A stretch of 64,000 nt of DNA from assembly GCF_055900595.2 (NCBI RefSeq), contig NZ_CM148325.1; one strand, given 5' to 3'. The notes under the pieces are model-generated. The model saw nothing but the letters and a program-made list of their open reading frames with translations, was not told the DNA's origin and ran no database searches. Positions 1-6,026 of this stretch are shown here, piece after piece. The position numbers and the translations under genes were made by a program. Position 1 is the stretch's first letter. Every line of letters begins with the position of its first letter.

Positions 1-675
1 GGAACCGTCATGCTGCTTCGTCTCATATTTCACGAGATAACTGGCTCTGTTCCGGGCTTTCTGCAGCGCTTCCACATCACCACGCTTGATCCAGAGAACA
101 GCGGCTTCACCCGGCTTTTTTTCTGAAGCCTTCCTGGTATCAGAACATCCACCCGACAAAGGCGTGTCATCGGAAGAAGGGCGAGCATCAGACGATGCTG
201 GTTTACGGGAAGGCGTCCACCTGGAAAAATGGACCAGGCCATCGCCTTGCCAGGCCTCAAGATGCAGGGCGCTGCACCATGCCTCCAGGATCATCGTCGC
301 CAGCGAAGATGGTTCGCTGAAATCCCCTGGCGAGCACCAGGTATCTTTGTTGAGCAGCAATATCACGTGATAATGTTTCCTGCCTTTTTCCTTGCCAAAC
401 TCCCGACACCAGAAATAACGCAGAGTGGTTGCACGCACACGCTTGTTGGCACGTCGTTTTTTCCGCTGGTAAGCCTGGATTTTGGCTTTCAGGGATTCGA
501 AAAAACGAGAAATCACCGCTGAATCCGGATCGGGATCCATGATGGTGACAGGCATATACTCAGGGAAACGTAAATCCACCCGGATTAACGAGACGGCACG
601 GTGCTGCGACAGGGCACTGTCGAGAAGGCTGTCAAAACGGGATAACCAGTAAGCATTGTGTATTGGTTGATTCAT
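1..675 (-). CDS. Island protein, YagK/YfjJ-like (inovirus Gp2-like family); partial, start codon at 675, continues beyond window start
   Basis: Reverse-strand reading frame open from ATG at 673-675 to position 1 without stop (about 225 codons, MNQPIHNAYWLSRFDSLLDS...); absent from ORF track presumably because no stop lies in the window. Family assignment from memory of CP4-type island proteins, not verified. Confidence 0.55.
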   Translation of the reverse strand, partial: MNQPIHNAYWLSRFDSLLDSALSQHRAVSLIRVDLRFPEYMPVTIMDPDPDSAVISRFFESLKAKIQAYQRKKRRANKRVRATTLRYFWCREFGKEKGRKHYHVILLLNKDTWCSPGDFSEPSSLATMILEAWCSALHLEAWQGDGLVHFSRWTPSRKPASSDARPSSDDTPLSGGCSDTRKASEKKPGEAAVLWIKRGDVEALQKARNRASYLVKYETKQHDGS

Positions 676-2252
676 GATGAGAGATCTCCGTTGATTTGGA
701 TTGACTTCACATCATTAATCACCGCGGTAAAACTTTACGGCATCATGTCATTAAGCAATGCTACAACTCTCTGATTAAGAGTGATTGAAACGGAACAAAC
801 CATCCCGGAACGAAAAGATAATCCTGCACACAGCAGCAAAACACGCAACAACAGCATGAATGGATTTAAAAACGACATGGACGACGAGAAAAGCCTGAAG
901 GGAAAAGGATCCACAGAACATTCGAACAAAACACCAGAAACGCAACCAGAACGCTTCCTGGCAATGCAAATCAACAACAACGCCAAAACCTACAGCTTAA
1001 TCACACAACTCAATCACGAATGCGAATGACACGTTTAAAACCTGTTTACAGATAACGCCGTAACACGATCATCCCCATCACCATCAGAATCGATTTTCTC
1101 ATCCCGAAAATGTTACGTTTCACTACGCACCATAAAAACGGTTAACCATCGATAACGTAAACCTTATCTGAATCAAAAACACCAAAACCGTTCATCACAC
1201 TTTCGCAATGCAAGAAGAAACCTCATGACAAAAAGAATGACCTTACACGGAAAAGAAAACGTCAGGAATCGTTAATGCCTCAATCTGATTGTTATCAAAA
1301 CATCCAGAAAGTCGTTTAACAGAATCGTCGTAAGCACATCGAAAAGAACGTCAGATCACCTCAGGAAAGTTCGGGTTGATTTAGCGTAAAGATACTTTTC
1401 TCAGCTTAACGTCGAAACACAAACCAAAAACCACAAACAACCAAAGCTCAGGAAAGGTTAAACGTCACATCAGTAAAATCGAATAGCAGATTGATTGCTT
1501 AAACAGGAAGGATTGTTTTACAGCAGCATTAAACTGATTTAGTTAACGTAAAATCAGAACTGACAGGTTTACTAACTTGGATGTGTATCAGTTCAAAAAT
1601 GTGTACAGCAATGCGTAATGAAACACATTTAAAGGAGATTAATGGGAAAGTGTGTAAATGCGTAAACAGGCACTAATGAATCACTGGAGGAATACATACA
1701 AAACGACTTAATGAAAACATAAAAGGACCTAATGGAAAAGGTGTATATAATACCATATCCGACATTCTCAACATCTTAAGACATCCATGCAGACTGAATG
1801 TTGGTTTCAGTTTTTCACGGTAAGCATGAATCTTTTCTGTTCAAAAGCAGAGCAGATTTACTCTGGAATTATTTTTCTTACTCCGTATTCTGTACAGCAA
1901 AAACTTGTGCTAACTTTACAGCAAACCATCATAATCAGCGTCTGTAGTCCCATCGCTTTACCCCATGAAAGTGAATCCATATGATGTGAGAGAGATAAGT
2001 CATCGTATCCGGTAAACACTGCTTACTATAACATAAGATCATTCAGTCAGTTTTATCTCTGAACTGACGATTATGGCATGCTCATTTATATGGCTCACAG
2101 AGGAGTGTTATTATCCGTAAGCTTTAATCATCAAATCACATGACCATACCAAACTGGCGCTATATCAGCTCATTTGACGCTCATTCCCTTTAGATTTCTT
2201 TATGTGTTTTTTGTTGATAATTAAAATGTAATATAAATTTAATATTTTCAAA

Positions 2253-3476
2253 TCATAAACACCATTTAAAACCATCATCCTGAACATCATACAACAATAT
2301 ATTTTTACTAAAGCATGAATTGTATACTTCTATTAATTCAGGAAAATTATCAGGATTCACCTTTAAATTCAACTGAATGTTACACTTAATTTCACTCAGC
2401 AGTTCTTCATGCGTGGATTTTATTATCCCTTTATCATAATCTATAAATACACACATGTTTTTCATGAATTCAAACCCTTTTCCTGTATACAGTTTGATGA
2501 ATGCCACAAGAGCAAACATTTCAAGATGCAGCCATAATGCCACGTGAGTTTTTCGCAAAGTATAAAAAATTGAATTCGCCACTTTTTTACTTATTGCTCT
2601 TTTGTACTGTGAGTGCGCCAGATTCAGTAGTGGCAATTCTCTCTCGATAAATGAAAGTGAAAAAGACGGGTAAATTGATGTCGGAAATATTTCAGGTCTT
2701 ATGATATTTTCGATTTCCACCATAAATCTATCCATAGAACGAAAATCATTTTCTTTTTTTATTCTGGTATAGAGACCGCCTTTATTCCTTACTGCGACTT
2801 TTTTTCGTGCTATCCCCCCCAACATTTCCTCTAATTGTTTATTTATCTTCGTATCATTAAATACAACCATTCTTCTTATCATCCTGGGAAGGATGATAAT
2901 ATCAGAGCTTGAATCACTTGAACGGCAATTATTATTGATCCATGCAACTTCAAGTTGAAGTATCGGAACATTAAATTCTCTGGGGTTAATAACTCTCTGA
3001 TATTGTTTTTTGTATGCGTTTTCATTAAGATATTCTCTGCTGTAGAGAAACTTATAGCAATATAATCTGACAATATCCTTTATGTAAGATTTAAATGAGT
3101 CACCTGTAACAGATATATTTTTTCTTCTCAGTAACTCCTGTGTATTGAGCCATTCCCGTGACCGGAGTACTCCATTATGAAGACTTTTTCTTACTTGCTT
3201 TGAATTGCGCAATTGATGTAATATTTTTGCGTCCTCAACAATTCTCTTTCCCGTTTGATTTCTTGCAGCATCTATTACTCTGTCAAATATCTCCCGGTCC
3301 AGACTTTTGTCATATTTACTGATTATACGACAAATATTCCTGACCCGACGGTTCTCTTTATTTCGTTTCCATAACTGATAATGATCATCACATAACCTCA
3401 GGGCATTTGCCTCATCAAATTCTGAAACAGGATTGCTGCATTTTTTATTCCGACAGATACCTTTGTTTTTAGCCAT
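2253..3476 (-). CDS. Hypothetical protein, 407 aa, strongly AT-rich, Lys/Asn/Ile-rich; N-terminal Cys-x4-Cys...Cys-x2-His motif; no family recognised
   Basis: Long uninterrupted ORF in ORF track; spot counts of lines give roughly 22-37% GC versus about 50% in flanking core genes; sits between YfjJ-like and YfjP-like island genes. Confidence 0.75.
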   Translation of the reverse strand: MAKNKGICRNKKCSNPVSEFDEANALRLCDDHYQLWKRNKENRRVRNICRIISKYDKSLDREIFDRVIDAARNQTGKRIVEDAKILHQLRNSKQVRKSLHNGVLRSREWLNTQELLRRKNISVTGDSFKSYIKDIVRLYCYKFLYSREYLNENAYKKQYQRVINPREFNVPILQLEVAWINNNCRSSDSSSDIIILPRMIRRMVVFNDTKINKQLEEMLGGIARKKVAVRNKGGLYTRIKKENDFRSMDRFMVEIENIIRPEIFPTSIYPSFSLSFIERELPLLNLAHSQYKRAISKKVANSIFYTLRKTHVALWLHLEMFALVAFIKLYTGKGFEFMKNMCVFIDYDKGIIKSTHEELLSEIKCNIQLNLKVNPDNFPELIEVYNSCFSKNILLYDVQDDGFKWCL

Positions 3477-3576
3477 ACTCTTCTTCCCGTCAATGGAAAA
3501 ATTTTCACGTCCATATTACCTGACTGAGAGGCCGGATTAATGTGATCCGGTTCAGTGAAATCAACAGGATAACGGT

Positions 3577-4461
3577 ATGTCATTCAGCCATTCTTCCCTC
3601 TCCGCACACGTAAAGTCACATCTGACCTTTCTTCCTGAAGAAATTCGCCAGAAAATCCTTGAACATCTTCGCAGCGTCATTCAGTACGAACCCGTTATTG
3701 GCATTATGGGTAAATCCGGTGCCGGAAAAAGCAGCCTGTGCAATGCCATTTTTCAGTCCCGTGTCTGCGCCACGCATCCGCTGAACGGCTGCACCCGTCA
3801 GGCTCATCGTCTTACCTTTCAGCCCGGTGAACGAAGAATGACGCTGGTCGATCTGCCCGGCACTGGCGAAACACCACAGCATGATCAGGAATACCGGGCA
3901 CTTTACAGTCAGTTACTGCCCGAACTGGATCTGATTATCTGGATCCTGCGGGCTGATGAACGTGCGTATGCTGCCGACATCGCCATGCATCAGTTTTTAC
4001 TGAATGAAGGTGCCGATCCCTCGCGTTTTCTGTTTGTTCTCAGCCATGCCGATCGCATCCACCCGGCTGAAGAATGGAACAACCAGAGCAGCACGCCATC
4101 CCGTCAGCAGGAACTCTCACTGGCGACGGTGACAGCCCGGGTGGCAACCCTGTTCCCTTCATCATTTCCGGTACTCCCCATAGCCGCTCCTGCCGGCTGG
4201 AATCTTCCGGCATTTGTGTCTCTGATGATCCACGCCCTGCCACCACAGGCAACCAGCGCGGTTTATTCGCATATCCGGAATGAAAAGCGCACTGCGCAGG
4301 ATCAGCAACACGCACAGCAGGCTTTTGGTGACGCCATCGGCCAGAGTTTTGACGCTGCCATTGCCCGGTTCAGCTTTCCGGCCTGGATGCTGCAGCTTCT
4401 GCGCAAAGCCCGTGATCGCATTATCCGCCTGCTGATCACACTGTGGGATCGCCTGTTCTGA
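3577..4461 (+). CDS. Island GTPase, YfjP/YkfA/YeeP-like (P-loop GTP-binding protein)
   Basis: 294-aa ORF with Walker A motif GIMGKSGAGKSS; sequence resembles K-12 prophage GTPases YfjP/YkfA. Confidence 0.85.
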   Translation: MSFSHSSLSAHVKSHLTFLPEEIRQKILEHLRSVIQYEPVIGIMGKSGAGKSSLCNAIFQSRVCATHPLNGCTRQAHRLTFQPGERRMTLVDLPGTGETPQHDQEYRALYSQLLPELDLIIWILRADERAYAADIAMHQFLLNEGADPSRFLFVLSHADRIHPAEEWNNQSSTPSRQQELSLATVTARVATLFPSSFPVLPIAAPAGWNLPAFVSLMIHALPPQATSAVYSHIRNEKRTAQDQQHAQQAFGDAIGQSFDAAIARFSFPAWMLQLLRKARDRIIRLLITLWDRLF

Positions 4462-4646
4462 ATGTCCCCGCTTTTTGACCGGCCCCGGCGATAACCAGGA
4501 AACGCATTTCCGGTTGCGTCACCACAATGCTGAAGGGCTTCGGTAAACCCTCATTCATTTCATCCATCAGGCCGCGTCTTCTCCGTGAGACGCGGCTTTT
4601 TCATTGATTACGTCATTCAGTCTTAACCACTGATAAGGAGCAAAGT

Positions 4647-5465
4647 ATGCGATTAGCCAGTCGTTTTGGTTATGCGAACCAGATACGCCGTGACCGTCCG
4701 CTGACCCGTGAAGAGCTGATGCACCATGTGCCCGGGATTTTCGGGGAAGATAAACACACCTCCCGGAGCCGGAACTATACATACATCCCCACCATCACCG
4801 TGCTGGAAAGCCTGCAGCGGGAAGGCTTTCAGCCATTCTTCGCCTGCCAGACCCGCGTACGTGACCCGGGCCGCCGGGGGTATACCAAACACATGCTGCG
4901 TCTGCGCCGTGACGGGGAGATAAACGGACAACATGTCCCTGAAATTATTCTGCTCAACTCTCATGACGGTACCTCCAGCTACCAGATGCTGCCGGGTTAC
5001 TTCAGGTTCGTCTGCCAGAACGGATGCGTCTGCGGTCAGTCTCTGGGGGAAGTGCGTGTTCCGCACCGGGGAAATGTGGTGGACAGAGTCATTGAAGGGG
5101 CTTACGAGGTGGTGGGCGTGTTTGACCGGATAGAGGAGAAGCGTGATGCCATGCAGTCGCTGGTCCTGCCGCCACCGGCACGCCAGGCGCTGGCACAGGC
5201 GGCACTGACTTACCGTTATGGTGACGAACATCAGCCCGTCACCACCGCCGACATTCTGACACCACGACGCCGGGAGGATTACGGTAAGGACCTGTGGAGT
5301 GCTTATCAGACCATCCAGGAGAATATGCTGAAAGGCGGGATTTCCGGTCGCAGTGCAAAAGGAAAACGTATCCATACCCGGGCCATTCACAGCATTGATA
5401 CCGATATAAAACTCAACCGCGCATTGTGGGTGATGGCAGAAACGCTGCTTGAGAGCATGCGCTGA
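4647..5465 (+). CDS. DUF932-family island protein, YfjQ-like
   Basis: 272-aa ORF; position after the GTPase gene and similarity to YfjQ as recalled. Confidence 0.75.
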   Translation: MRLASRFGYANQIRRDRPLTREELMHHVPGIFGEDKHTSRSRNYTYIPTITVLESLQREGFQPFFACQTRVRDPGRRGYTKHMLRLRRDGEINGQHVPEIILLNSHDGTSSYQMLPGYFRFVCQNGCVCGQSLGEVRVPHRGNVVDRVIEGAYEVVGVFDRIEEKRDAMQSLVLPPPARQALAQAALTYRYGDEHQPVTTADILTPRRREDYGKDLWSAYQTIQENMLKGGISGRSAKGKRIHTRAIHSIDTDIKLNRALWVMAETLLESMR

Positions 5466-5546
5466 TGCCGTTTCCCTGAGTGAGGGAATCATTCAGCTTT
5501 CGTTCCTGAAAAACACACATTTATTTGTTATTTAAGGCGTTATCTC

Positions 5547-6026
5547 ATGAAAACCGTTTCTCAGAATACCCCCACAATTTATTCAGCTACAACACCAGAG
5601 AATAATCCGCCTCAGTTGGTTGCCAGCCTCGTCCCTGATGAACAGCGCATCAGCTTCTGGCCGCAGCATTTTGGCCTCATTCCACAGTGGGTGACCCTGG
5701 AGCCCCGTGTCTTCGGCTGGATGGACCGTCTGTGCGAAGACTACTGCGGTGGTATCTGGAATCTGTACACCCTGAACAACGGCGGGGCATTTATGGCCCC
5801 CGAACCGGATGATGATGATGACGAAACATGGGTACTGTTCAATGCCATGAACGGTAACCGCGCTGAAATGAGCCCGGAAGCCGCCGGCATTGCTGCCTGT
5901 CTGATGACGTACAGTCATCACGCCTGCCGTACGGAGTGTTATGCCATGACGGTTCATTATTACCGTCTGCGGGATTACGCCCTGCAGCATCCGGAATGCA
6001 GCGCCATTATGCGCATCATTGACTGA
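5547..6026 (+). CDS. Antirestriction protein, KlcA/ArdB-like (YfjX/YafX family)
   Basis: 159-aa ORF with acidic DDDDDE tract; conserved position preceding RadC-like gene in CP4-type islands. Confidence 0.75.
   Translation: MKTVSQNTPTIYSATTPENNPPQLVASLVPDEQRISFWPQHFGLIPQWVTLEPRVFGWMDRLCEDYCGGIWNLYTLNNGGAFMAPEPDDDDDETWVLFNAMNGNRAEMSPEAAGIAACLMTYSHHACRTECYAMTVHYYRLRDYALQHPECSAIMRIID

What the first reader, a model, noticed from the sequence alone, without database searches (positions are those of the whole stretch)
700..2252. About 1.5 kb ORF-free region with a strongly T-depleted A/C-rich tract (about 780-1480) and recurring short motifs
Between the YfjJ-like gene and the 407-aa gene there is no credible ORF for about 1.5 kb. 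From about 780 to 1480 the plus strand is roughly 40% A and 10-15% T by line counts, an unusual skew for E. coli. Short motifs recur: GAAAAGAA(AA)CGTCAG at about 1249-1266 and 1341-1354, AACGTCA again at 1461-1467, and CTCAGGAAAG at about 1361-1370 and 1447-1456; several are CAGGA-type. The adjoining gene belongs to a family named after the inovirus replication initiator, so this could be a cis-acting origin or packaging-like region for the island. A structured or protein-sequestering non-coding RNA, or a decayed gene remnant, are alternatives.
Basis: seen in the sequence. Interest (0 to 1): 0.6.

Follow-up and report, generated by a model that had tools for sequence, protein, structure and literature searches.

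The report
Drifting A/C-rich spacer beside conserved control module
The 1.5-kb gene-free stretch is the control region of a common E. coli genomic island: its odd A/C-rich part looks like drifting low-complexity filler, and only a short promoter-like module at its right end is conserved across genera.

Summary
The ORF-free gap (676-2252) and the A/C-rich skew are real. A is 41% over 781-1480. T falls to 12% only in 781-1030 and is 18% over the whole tract. The recurring short motifs are no more frequent than in shuffles and are not conserved in the second allele clade.

The tract shows no sign of function:
- no codon periodicity, no conserved ORF, no Rfam match, no folding signal on either strand;
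- it diverges faster than 4-fold sites of the neighbouring gene;
- one E. coli island variant replaces its core with unrelated sequence, and distant relatives of the island lack it;
- its indels are A/C-only tandem expansions, such as (CATCAC)n;
- polarised substitutions show the skew eroding (A/C to G/T 108, reverse 72).

I read it as a lineage-specific, neutrally evolving low-complexity spacer.

The conserved part lies at about 1600-1880: an AT-rich repeat array, Box A (TATAAT-N7-CCGACA, 1746-1764) and Box B (ACTCTGGAATTAT, 1860-1872). This bipartite module occurs in 9 of 11 island lineages, out to Providencia and Brenneria. It sits between the GTPase/antirestriction arm and the 'inovirus Gp2' gene, which models as an HUH nickase. 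It is most likely a promoter plus leader, possibly bidirectional, and less likely the nickase's origin. Overall the finding is ordinary, with one modest new lead.

The parts
1..675 (-). N-terminal 225 codons of the 'inovirus Gp2 family' (YagK/YfjJ-like) gene; the window cuts off its 3' end. Models as an HUH nickase.
676..760 (.). Gp2-proximal conserved segment: the ribosome-binding site (complement of CTCC at 686-689) and a GGTAAAAC-type motif near 723-732. Presumed 5' UTR or promoter-operator of the Gp2 operon.
   Evidence: Mean pairwise identity is 0.97-0.98 over 676-735, against 0.92 at 4-fold sites of the gene. This is the only part shared by all 1877 matching E. coli genomes. A similar G(G/T)TGTAAAAA motif sits at the same distance from the start codon in Brenneria, Morganellaceae and the Logan-contig loci.
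781..1480 (+). A/C-rich, T/G-poor low-complexity spacer, specific to the E. coli lineage of the island. No coding, structural or sequence constraint was detected.
   Evidence: Composition. No periodicity and no excess of repeats. No internal duplication. The plus-strand RNA would be almost unstructured, and no fold z-score is below -1.7. Identity of 0.84-0.86 is lower than at 4-fold sites. The skew is eroding. The core is replaced in L015/L016 and absent from distant relatives.
1066..1084 (+). Remnant of a CATCAC hexamer repeat (CATCCCCATCACCATCAG) whose copy number varies between strains.
   Evidence: L024 carries (CATCAC) x 7.8 at 100% match at the homologous position. L010 and L023 have intermediate numbers.
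1421..1439 (+). Lineage-specific insertion made only of A and C (AAACCAAAAACCACAAACA).
   Evidence: Present in only 3 of 22 loci (window, L001, L017). L014 carries an independent 40-nt expansion of A/C-rich heptamers at the same site (TRF on the opposite strand: TGAGTTT x 8).
1600..1745 (.). Array of short AT-rich direct repeats with variable copy number: TAATGRRA-type units here, and AACACTTAGTAAAA / ACGTGTAT units of about 12 nt in other alleles. Candidate operator or iteron array.
   Evidence: Unit number differs between loci (L010, L011, L012 and L006 have more; L007 and L013 have fewer). Analogous repeats lie next to Box A in distant lineages: AAACACATA x 3 in L019 and 22 nt x 3.5 at 94% match in L033.
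1746..1764 (+). Box A: TATAAT-ACCATAT-CCGACA. A -10-like hexamer followed by a conserved start region. The complementary strand also carries -10-like hexamers, so the promoter core may be bidirectional.
   Evidence: The pattern TATAWT-N5-8-CCRACA is found in 8 of 10 non-E. coli lineages, against 0.16 expected. See also the alignment. A minus-strand TTGAGA-N16-TATATA is present in 12 of 12 E. coli loci. There is no stable conserved DNA hairpin around the box.
1759..1872 (+). Leader of about 114 nt of conserved length, running from CCGACA to Box B. Probably the 5' leader of the GTPase/antirestriction arm, or a short orphan transcript in alleles where cargo is inserted after it.
   Evidence: The distance from CCRACA to Box B is 101 nt in E. 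coli and 57-92 nt in other lineages. In Providencia L019 the module lies about 190 nt upstream of the GTPase start codon. RNAalifold gives only weak support for a fold (-6.45 kcal/mol, 2 compensatory pairs).
1860..1872 (+). Box B: ACTCTGGAATTAT, a conserved primary-sequence motif.
   Evidence: Box A plus Box B occurs in 9 of 11 lineages, against 0.007 expected in shuffles.
1848..1878 (+). Weak terminator-like hairpin (CAGAG...CTCTG) followed by a T-run. Similarity between island alleles ends just after it.
   Evidence: The T-run is not conserved in distant lineages.
1890..2252 (.). Cargo-linked sequence lying 3' of the 407-aa gene. It travels with that cargo type and is not part of the conserved control region.
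   Evidence: It aligns only with loci that carry the same 407-aa cargo (L001, L010, L016, L017, L027). Other alleles have unrelated sequence here.
2253..3476 (-). 407-aa cargo gene of unknown function. It is one of several alternative cargo sets at this slot.
   Evidence: No significant NCBIfam, PHROGs or PADLOC match.

Best explanation
The gap is the divergent control region of a family of integrative islands. On one side is an operon that begins with an HUH-nickase-like gene (Gp2/YfjJ family, followed by YfjI/AlpA-type genes). On the other side is the GTPase, antirestriction, DUF932, RadC and toxin-antitoxin arm.

Only two parts look functional. The first is the roughly 80 nt next to the Gp2 start codon. 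The second is an ancient module at about 1600-1880, made of an AT-rich direct-repeat array, Box A (a -10-like hexamer plus CCGACA) and Box B about 100 nt downstream. I infer that this module is the promoter, operator and leader of the right arm, and that it may fire in both directions.

The A/C-rich tract (781-1480) is extra DNA found only in the E. coli lineage. It arose by slippage-type expansion of short A/C-rich units such as CATCAC and CAAACCA. Ordinary strand-symmetric point mutation is now randomising it. It acts, at most, as a passive spacer between the two regulatory ends.

Shown here: the anatomy, the lack of constraint, the erosion of the skew, the A/C-only indels, the deep conservation of Box A and Box B, and the HUH fold of the protein. 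Inferred: the promoter function, the direction of transcription, and the absence of any function for the tract.
For: Layout: the order Gp2 (-), 1.5-1.8 kb unannotated, variable cargo, GTPase (+) is the same in every E. coli locus examined. Distant relatives have the same divergent arrangement with gaps of only 400-1350 nt.

The tract is an addition: the distance from the Gp2 start to CCRACA is about 1084 nt in E. coli and 158-295 nt (822 in L022) elsewhere.

No constraint: pairwise identity is 0.84-0.86 in the tract, against 0.92 at 4-fold sites of the adjacent gene. Polarised events per site are the same in the tract and its flank (0.33 each). The core 863-1161 is replaced by about 1150 nt of unrelated sequence in L015/L016.

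Not coding and not structured.

Origin by slippage: indels within the tract are A 0.44, C 0.32, G 0.11, T 0.14. They include (CATCAC) x 7.8 in L024, a 19-nt pure A/C insertion in the window lineage, and an independent heptamer expansion in L014.

Erosion: A/C to G/T changes number 108 against 72 in reverse (p = 0.009 against stationarity). This fits the strand-symmetric expectation of 0.647 (p = 0.19). T is gained 71 times and lost 40. Complementary rates are equal. The control flank gives 54 against 47.

Module: Box A plus Box B occurs in 9 of 11 lineages against 0.007 expected. Repeats lie beside Box A in several lineages. In Providencia the module lies directly upstream of the GTPase gene.
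Against: No transcription data were available, so the promoters, their direction and the transcription status of the tract are all unproven. Promoter-like hexamers are common in this AT-rich DNA, and the consensus scan found no excess over shuffles. The -35 for the plus-strand Box A promoter is poor.

A 700-nt non-functional spacer that persists in 1388 of 5426 E. coli genomes is unusual, given the deletion bias of bacterial genomes. Some length- or composition-dependent role cannot be excluded.

The polarisation uses two recombining clades and parsimony. The neutral benchmark (4-fold sites of one neighbouring gene) may have a different genealogy because the region is mosaic.
Confidence: 0.6

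Rival explanations
1. The tract is transcribed on the minus strand as part of a leader of about 1.07 kb for the Gp2 operon, starting at a bidirectional Box A promoter. The resulting G/U-rich, C-poor untranslated RNA would be a poor Rho substrate. That would let a long leader reach the gene, and the repeat array and tract could carry regulatory input.
For: Box A carries -10-like hexamers on the minus strand (TATAGT, TATGAT, TATTAT) in all lineages. A minus-strand TTGAGA-N16-TATATA is present in 12 of 12 E. coli loci. In distant relatives Box A is the only conserved promoter-like element in a short gap of 150-290 nt serving two divergent operons. The minus strand of 1031-1250 has G 0.27 and C 0.12.
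Against: The 80 nt next to the Gp2 start are the most conserved part and may hold the real promoter. The skew is eroding at the neutral rate, so C-poverty is not being maintained. The tract core is dispensable in L015/L016. No transcription start data exist.
Confidence: 0.2
2. The tract is made as a plus-strand, unstructured, A/C-rich and G-poor RNA. It would act either as a Rho-loading insulator between the two arms or as a sponge for an RNA-binding protein such as Hfq, CsrA or an island-encoded ProQ/FinO protein.
For: The predicted plus-strand RNA is exceptionally unstructured (-0.07 to -0.10 kcal/mol per nt, against -0.27 +/- 0.06 elsewhere). C exceeds G by 1.6- to 2.3-fold. Plus-strand promoter-like sites exist at 691-719 and 705-732. 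A ProQ/FinO gene occurs in one island allele.
Against: ARN triplet runs are not enriched (9 against 9.3). GGA is barely enriched (12 against 7.9) and the CAGGA sites are not conserved. There is no sequence constraint and the skew is eroding. The tract is absent from distant relatives and replaced in one E. coli variant. There is no terminator or defined 3' end.
Confidence: 0.07
3. The conserved module (repeat array plus Box A, with or without Box B) is the origin used by the HUH nickase. The repeats would be binding iterons and Box A would hold the nick site, so that the excised island replicates or is mobilised by a rolling-circle mechanism. This rescues the first reader's origin idea, but places it at 1600-1880 and not in the tract.
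For: The adjacent protein has the three rolling-circle Rep motifs and an HUH fold. Direct repeats abut Box A, including a clean 22 nt x 3.5 array in L033. Box A conservation extends about 12 nt beyond the -10 hexamer across genera, which is more than a promoter usually needs. The layout, with iterons and a conserved AT-rich box in a divergent intergenic region next to rep, resembles geminivirus and rolling-circle plasmid origins (from my own knowledge, not tested here).
Against: There is no stable conserved hairpin presenting Box A in a loop and no DnaA box. Many E. coli copies of the gene are truncated before the catalytic Tyr (206-214 aa forms), yet they keep the module. The resemblance to the phiX174 origin is limited to about 9 AT-rich bases. 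A promoter explains the position upstream of the GTPase arm more simply.
Confidence: 0.2
4. The tract is the decayed remnant of a protein-coding gene.
For: A 57/82-aa ORF is annotated in some genomes. One island variant (L016) has an intact 176-aa ORF in the same slot.
Against: There is no 3-base periodicity (z -0.4). Indels are not in multiples of three and the ORF is broken in about half of the loci. The 176-aa ORF has no similarity to the tract. The small ORF has no family match. The A/C-only tandem indels point to slippage, not to coding decay.
Confidence: 0.04

Closest known systems
Polymorphic simple-sequence (short tandem repeat) tracts in bacterial intergenic DNA
   Same: Short units (CATCAC, 7-mers, and a 17-mer in the adjacent 1481-1600 segment) expand and contract between strains. 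Insertions consist of the local motif. The overall composition is strand-biased and of low complexity.
   Different: Most of the tract is no longer recognisably repetitive: TRF finds nothing in the window copy. At 700 nt it is much longer than typical contingency-locus repeats. No link to phase variation is shown.
Iteron-containing origins of HUH (rolling-circle) replicons, such as the pMV158 dso and the geminivirus common region
   Same: An HUH nickase gene lies next to an intergenic region that has direct repeats and a short, highly conserved AT-rich box. The region also sits between divergent transcription units.
   Different: There is no stem-loop presenting the box. Nicking is untested. 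The element is a chromosomal island with an integrase/AlpA-type module, not a plasmid or virus. Many copies of the nickase gene are truncated.
Compact bidirectional sigma-70 promoters built on the symmetry of the -10 element
   Same: Box A has -10-like hexamers on both strands within 12 bp and lies between two divergent operons.
   Different: No start-site data exist. The -35 elements are weak. Conservation extends into the CCRACA start region.
Ff (inovirus) intergenic region upstream of gene II
   Same: A large non-coding region lies directly upstream of a gene that Pfam relates to gpII.
   Different: The Ff region is densely structured as single-stranded DNA (packaging signal and origin hairpins). 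Here no strand folds better than shuffles and the A/C-rich tract cannot form hairpins.
CsrB/RsmZ-type or CrcZ-type protein-sequestering RNAs
   Same: A long non-coding stretch with a few CAGGA motifs and an A-rich composition.
   Different: There is no Rfam match, no hairpin-presented GGA, no enrichment of ARN runs, no conservation of the motifs, and no promoter or terminator defining a transcript.

Membership tests
CsrB/RsmZ-type CsrA-sequestering RNA | Many GGA/AGGA motifs, well above the composition expectation, mostly in hairpin loops | tested here: not met
   GGA 12 against 7.9 expected and AGGA 6 against 2.7 in 750 nt. No stable hairpins.
CsrB/RsmZ-type CsrA-sequestering RNA | Motifs conserved among homologues; covariance-model match | tested here: not met
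   The CAGGA sites change in the second allele clade. Rfam finds nothing at E <= 1 in 1-6000.
Structured non-coding RNA (any Rfam family or a new one) | Folding energy below that of shuffles, or covarying base pairs | tested here: not met
   All 150-nt stretches on both strands have z above -1.7. The 1755-1885 block gives z -1.2 and -1.9. RNAalifold gives -6.45 kcal/mol with only 2 compensatory pairs.
Pseudogene (decayed coding sequence) | Homology to an intact gene elsewhere | tested here: not met
   tblastn of the 176-aa ORF from L016 finds nothing in the tract. blastn finds the tract only in these islands. The small ORF has no family match. A protein database search with the small ORF itself was not run.
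Pseudogene (decayed coding sequence) | Residual 3-base periodicity or frame-preserving indels | tested here: not met
   Periodicity z -0.4, against 3.1-6.5 in the flanking genes. Indels of 4, 5, 7, 8, 13, 14 and 19 nt.
Rolling-circle (HUH) origin with iterons | Adjacent gene encodes an HUH nickase with motifs I-III | tested here: met
   [not shown]
Rolling-circle (HUH) origin with iterons | Direct repeats (binding sites) next to a conserved short sequence | tested here: met
   Repeat array at 1600-1745. A 22 nt x 3.5 array in L033. Box A in 8 of 10 distant lineages. All of this applies to 1600-1765, not to the A/C-rich tract.
Rolling-circle (HUH) origin with iterons | Nick sequence exposed in the loop of a stable stem-loop | tested here: not met
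   DNA folding around Box A in 10 lineages gives -0.4 to -5.3 kcal/mol and z -1.4 to +1.2, with no common hairpin.
Rolling-circle (HUH) origin with iterons | Site-specific nicking and Rep-dependent replication | not testable with these tools
   Needs biochemistry or genetics.
Sigma-70 promoter (possibly bidirectional) | Conserved -10 hexamer at a fixed position relative to the downstream gene or leader | tested here: met
   TATAWT lies 6-7 nt before CCRACA in 9 of 11 lineages. In L019 it lies about 200 nt upstream of the GTPase start.
Sigma-70 promoter (possibly bidirectional) | Matching -35 element and a mapped transcription start | tested here: inconclusive
   The plus-strand -35 is poor. 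The minus strand has TTGAGA-N16-TATATA in 12 of 12 loci. The consensus scan finds no excess over shuffles. There are no start-site data.
Polymorphic simple-sequence tract | Copy number of short tandem units differs between alleles, and insertions are made of the local motif | tested here: met
   (CATCAC) x 7.8 in L024 against a remnant in the window. Heptamer x 8 in L014. A/C-only insertions; indel composition A 0.44, C 0.32.
Single-strand promoter (Frpo/ssi-type) of conjugative leading regions | Long imperfect hairpin in single-stranded DNA that rebuilds a duplex promoter | tested here: not met
   No stretch on either strand folds better than shuffles with RNA parameters. DNA-parameter folding was done only around Box A and found no hairpin there.

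The most novel reading that the evidence does not exclude
The repeat array, Box A and Box B at 1600-1880 form the origin (binding iterons plus a nick or loading site) of the island's HUH nickase. On this reading the very common 'cryptic P4-like' islands of E. coli and other Enterobacterales, which carry the GTPase, antirestriction, DUF932, RadC and CbtA genes, would be rolling-circle replicating or self-mobilising elements whose cis site has now been located. A variant reading is that in E. coli, where cargo is inserted right after Box B, the module produces an orphan RNA of about 115 nt with a conserved 5' CCGACA end.
Probability: 0.2. Interest if true: 0.6.

Novelty: new member of a known kind. 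Interest (0 to 1): 0.3.

Why it matters
As flagged, the finding does not point to a new RNA or a new kind of origin. The A/C-rich tract is best read as drifting low-complexity filler, and saying so prevents over-interpretation.

The useful by-product is a precise map of the control region of an island family present in about a third of complete E. coli genomes (1861 of 5426 carry the module). That map comprises an uncharacterised y-gene family (YfjJ/YagK) that models as an HUH nickase, a bipartite DNA box conserved from E. coli to Providencia and Brenneria, and a cargo-insertion point immediately after it.

This gives a testable entry point into how these so-called cryptic islands are regulated, and whether they replicate or are mobilised.

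Tried and rejected
- Rfam scan of 1-6000 at E <= 1: nothing.
- K-12 prophages CP4-57 and CP4-6: no homologue of the region or of Box B, so K-12 transcriptome resources cannot be used.
- Phage collection: no match. Plasmid collection: only 4.
- Internal duplication within the tract: none above shuffles.
- Tandem repeats in the window copy of the tract: none.
- Candidate small RNA at 1755-1885: weak fold, 2 compensatory pairs, and a T-run not conserved in distant lineages. It is kept only as a minor reading.
- Esr41, a known small RNA of the related O157 island OI-43, lies between z1181 and z1182 and has a GC-rich terminator, so it is not this element (PMC8565820).
- Resemblance of Box A to the phiX174 origin: I checked it against the real sequence. 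Only AAYACTATA is shared, so I treat it as chance.
- DnaA boxes: none in the region.
- Stem-loop around Box A: none conserved.
- Cargo proteins against PADLOC, NCBIfam and PHROGs: no informative hit.
- PDB sequence search with the Gp2 profile: nothing. The relationship is visible only at the fold level.
- Literature searches found nothing on this non-coding region or on HUH activity of YfjJ/YagK, and the y-ome review lists yfjJ and yagK as uncharacterised.
Full report
**Observation**

Window 676-2252 is a 1577-nt gap. On its left is the start codon of a minus-strand 'inovirus Gp2 family' (YagK/YfjJ-like) gene at 1-675. On its right is the stop of a minus-strand 407-aa gene at 2253-3476.

Over 781-1480 the plus strand is A 0.41, C 0.25, G 0.16 and T 0.18. 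T is as low as 0.12 only in 781-1030. A+C peaks at 0.70, the most extreme 300-nt stretch in the 64-kb window (mean 0.51, sd 0.042).

As a class they are not unusual. The number of repeated 8- to 11-mers in 700-2252 matches dinucleotide-preserving shuffles, and GGA is only mildly enriched. In the second allele clade the motifs are changed.

**Context**

The region is not a one-off.
- megablast finds it in 1877 of 5426 complete E. coli genomes, at 2902 places and 60-99% identity, almost always on chromosomes.
- It is rare on plasmids and absent from phage genomes.
- In every locus fetched the order is the same: Gp2 gene (-), then 1.5-1.8 kb with no or only tiny annotated ORFs, then a variable cargo of hypothetical genes, then the GTPase gene (+), followed by DUF932, antirestriction, RadC, DUF987 and CbeA/CbtA genes.
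- The left 1200 nt or so of the gap is shared between cargo types. Similarity stops at about 1880, and 1890-2252 travels with the 407-aa cargo.

**Is the tract constrained?**

No.
- Mean pairwise identity is 0.92 at 4-fold degenerate sites of the adjacent Gp2 gene. It is 0.81-0.89 in segments of the gap and 0.84-0.86 in the tract.
- Only the 60 nt next to the Gp2 start (0.97-0.98) exceed the synonymous benchmark.
- The region is a recombination mosaic of two main allele clades that are about 78% identical in the tract.
- There is no 3-base periodicity (z -0.4, against 3.1-6.5 for the flanking genes).
- The 57/82-aa ORF is intact in about half of 22 loci.
- Indels are not in multiples of three.
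- Rfam finds nothing.
- No 150-nt stretch on either strand folds better than shuffles. The plus-strand RNA of 876-1325 would be nearly unstructured, at -0.07 to -0.10 kcal/mol per nt against -0.27 elsewhere.
- There is no internal duplication.

**Is the tract always there?**

No.
- In an E. coli island variant whose Gp2 protein is 65-68% identical (L015, L016), window 863-1161 is replaced by about 1150 nt of unrelated sequence. That sequence carries a 176-aa ORF, intact in L016 and frameshifted in L015. The ORF has no similarity to the tract.
- In islands whose Gp2 homologue is 33-42% identical (Brenneria, Providencia, Morganellaceae, metagenomic and IMG/VR contigs), the same divergent layout exists. 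Most of these gaps are 400-750 nt, and none has a long A/C-rich tract.
- The distance from the Gp2 start to the conserved CCRACA box is about 1084 nt in E. coli and 158-295 nt in most other lineages.
- The tract is therefore an addition of about 850-900 nt specific to the E. coli lineage. It is present in 1388 of 5426 genomes.

**Where did it come from, and is the skew maintained?**

Lineage-specific indels within the tract are themselves A/C-rich low-complexity sequence (A 0.44, C 0.32, G 0.11, T 0.14). Examples:
- a CATCAC hexamer present as 7.8 perfect copies in L024, with intermediate numbers in L010 and L023 and a remnant at window 1066-1084;
- a 19-nt insertion made only of A and C at window 1421-1439, found in 3 of 22 loci;
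- an independent 40-nt heptamer expansion at the same site in L014.

I polarised substitutions within each allele clade, using the other clade as outgroup. A/C to G/T changes number 108 against 72 in reverse. This differs from stationarity (p = 0.009) and fits what strand-symmetric mutation predicts for this composition (0.647; p = 0.19). T is gained 71 times and lost 40. Complementary substitution rates are equal. The unskewed flank 1481-1885 gives 54 against 47.

So the skew is created by slippage of A/C-rich units and is then eroded by ordinary mutation. Neither selection nor strand-specific mutation maintains it.

**What is conserved?**

Aligning the right end of the gap across lineages reveals a module.
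1. An AT-rich array of short direct repeats whose unit and copy number vary: window 1600-1745; about 12-nt AACACTTAGTAAAA / ACGTGTAT units in other E. coli alleles; AAACACATA x 3 in Providencia; a clean 22 nt x 3.5 array in L033.
2. Box A, TATAWT-N5-8-CCRACA (window 1746-1764).
3. Box B, ACTCTG(G)A..TTA(T/G) (window 1860-1872), 57-101 nt further on.

Box A alone occurs in 8 of 10 non-E. coli lineages, against 0.16 expected. Box A plus Box B occurs in 9 of 11 lineages, against 0.007 expected.

In Providencia the module lies about 190 nt upstream of the GTPase start codon. The simplest reading is that it is the promoter and 5' leader of the GTPase/antirestriction arm. In E. coli the variable cargo is inserted immediately after Box B.

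Box A also carries -10-like hexamers on the minus strand, and a TTGAGA-N16-TATATA arrangement is present in 12 of 12 E. coli loci. It may therefore be a compact bidirectional promoter that also feeds the Gp2 operon.

**The neighbouring gene**

In the paper library searched, YfjJ and YagK are still listed as uncharacterised, and nothing was found on HUH activity.

This keeps open the idea that the repeats plus Box A are the nickase's origin. Three things argue against it:
- no conserved hairpin presents Box A;
- there is no DnaA box;
- many E. coli copies of the gene lack the Tyr motif.

The resemblance to the phiX174 origin is limited to about 9 AT-rich bases.

**Verdict**

None of the interpretations holds for the A/C-rich tract. 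The 'cis-acting region next to a replication-initiator-like gene' idea survives only for the module at 1600-1880.

I put the passive-spacer reading of the tract, with a promoter-leader module beside it, at about 0.6. The long G/U-rich Gp2 leader stands at about 0.2, the module as an HUH origin at about 0.2, a functional plus-strand RNA at 0.07, and a decayed gene at 0.04. The readings for the tract and those for the module are not all mutually exclusive. Transcription start mapping and a nicking assay would settle the matter.

Noticed in passing
[not shown]
   Followed up: yes
window about 1880-3576; L002 7694-9429; L008 4566-5696; L013 4800-5819: The slot between Box B and the GTPase gene holds alternative cargo in different strains: 407 aa; 262 + 316 aa; 376 aa; 339 aa. 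None matches PADLOC, NCBIfam or PHROGs. This behaves like a cargo hot spot with a sharp left boundary just after ACTCTGGAATTATTTTTCT.
   Followed up: partly
L016 3801-4331 (-); L015 about 3727-4259: One island variant replaces the A/C-rich core with about 1150 nt carrying a 176-aa ORF. The ORF is intact in L016 and frameshifted in L015. It has no confident family match (only a weak, sub-threshold PHROGs hit).
   Followed up: partly
L024 1708-1754 and 2179-2241: There is a perfect (CATCAC) x 7.8 array, and a 17-nt x 3.7 array (GATTTACTAAACGTAAA) at the position of window about 1545-1575. The control region carries strain-variable tandem repeats.
   Followed up: partly
L033 2821-2897: A 22-nt unit is repeated 3.5 times at 94% match, a few tens of nucleotides from Box A. 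The contig is from IMG/VR and its Gp2 homologue is 38% identical. This is the cleanest iteron-like array seen.
   Followed up: no
proteins P0046, P0058, P0074 (206-214 aa): Several E. coli Gp2-family genes end before the catalytic-Tyr motif, and P0079 is frameshifted through the HUH motif. Many island copies therefore probably encode an inactive nickase.
   Followed up: partly
window 3577-4461 (+): The island GTPase (YeeP/YfjP-like) gives a weak PADLOC match to LeoBC (E 3.8e-7, C-terminal 100 residues only).
   Followed up: no
window 2224-2245: A short tandem repeat, AAATGTAATAT x 2, lies just past the stop codon of the 407-aa gene in very AT-rich DNA (GC 0.24-0.29).
   Followed up: no
L007 (contig JAEYLX010000008.1): A contig labelled 'Bacillota bacterium' MAG carries this E. 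coli-type island segment, with an 88% identical Gp2 gene and the full non-coding region. This is probably a binning or contamination artefact.
   Followed up: no
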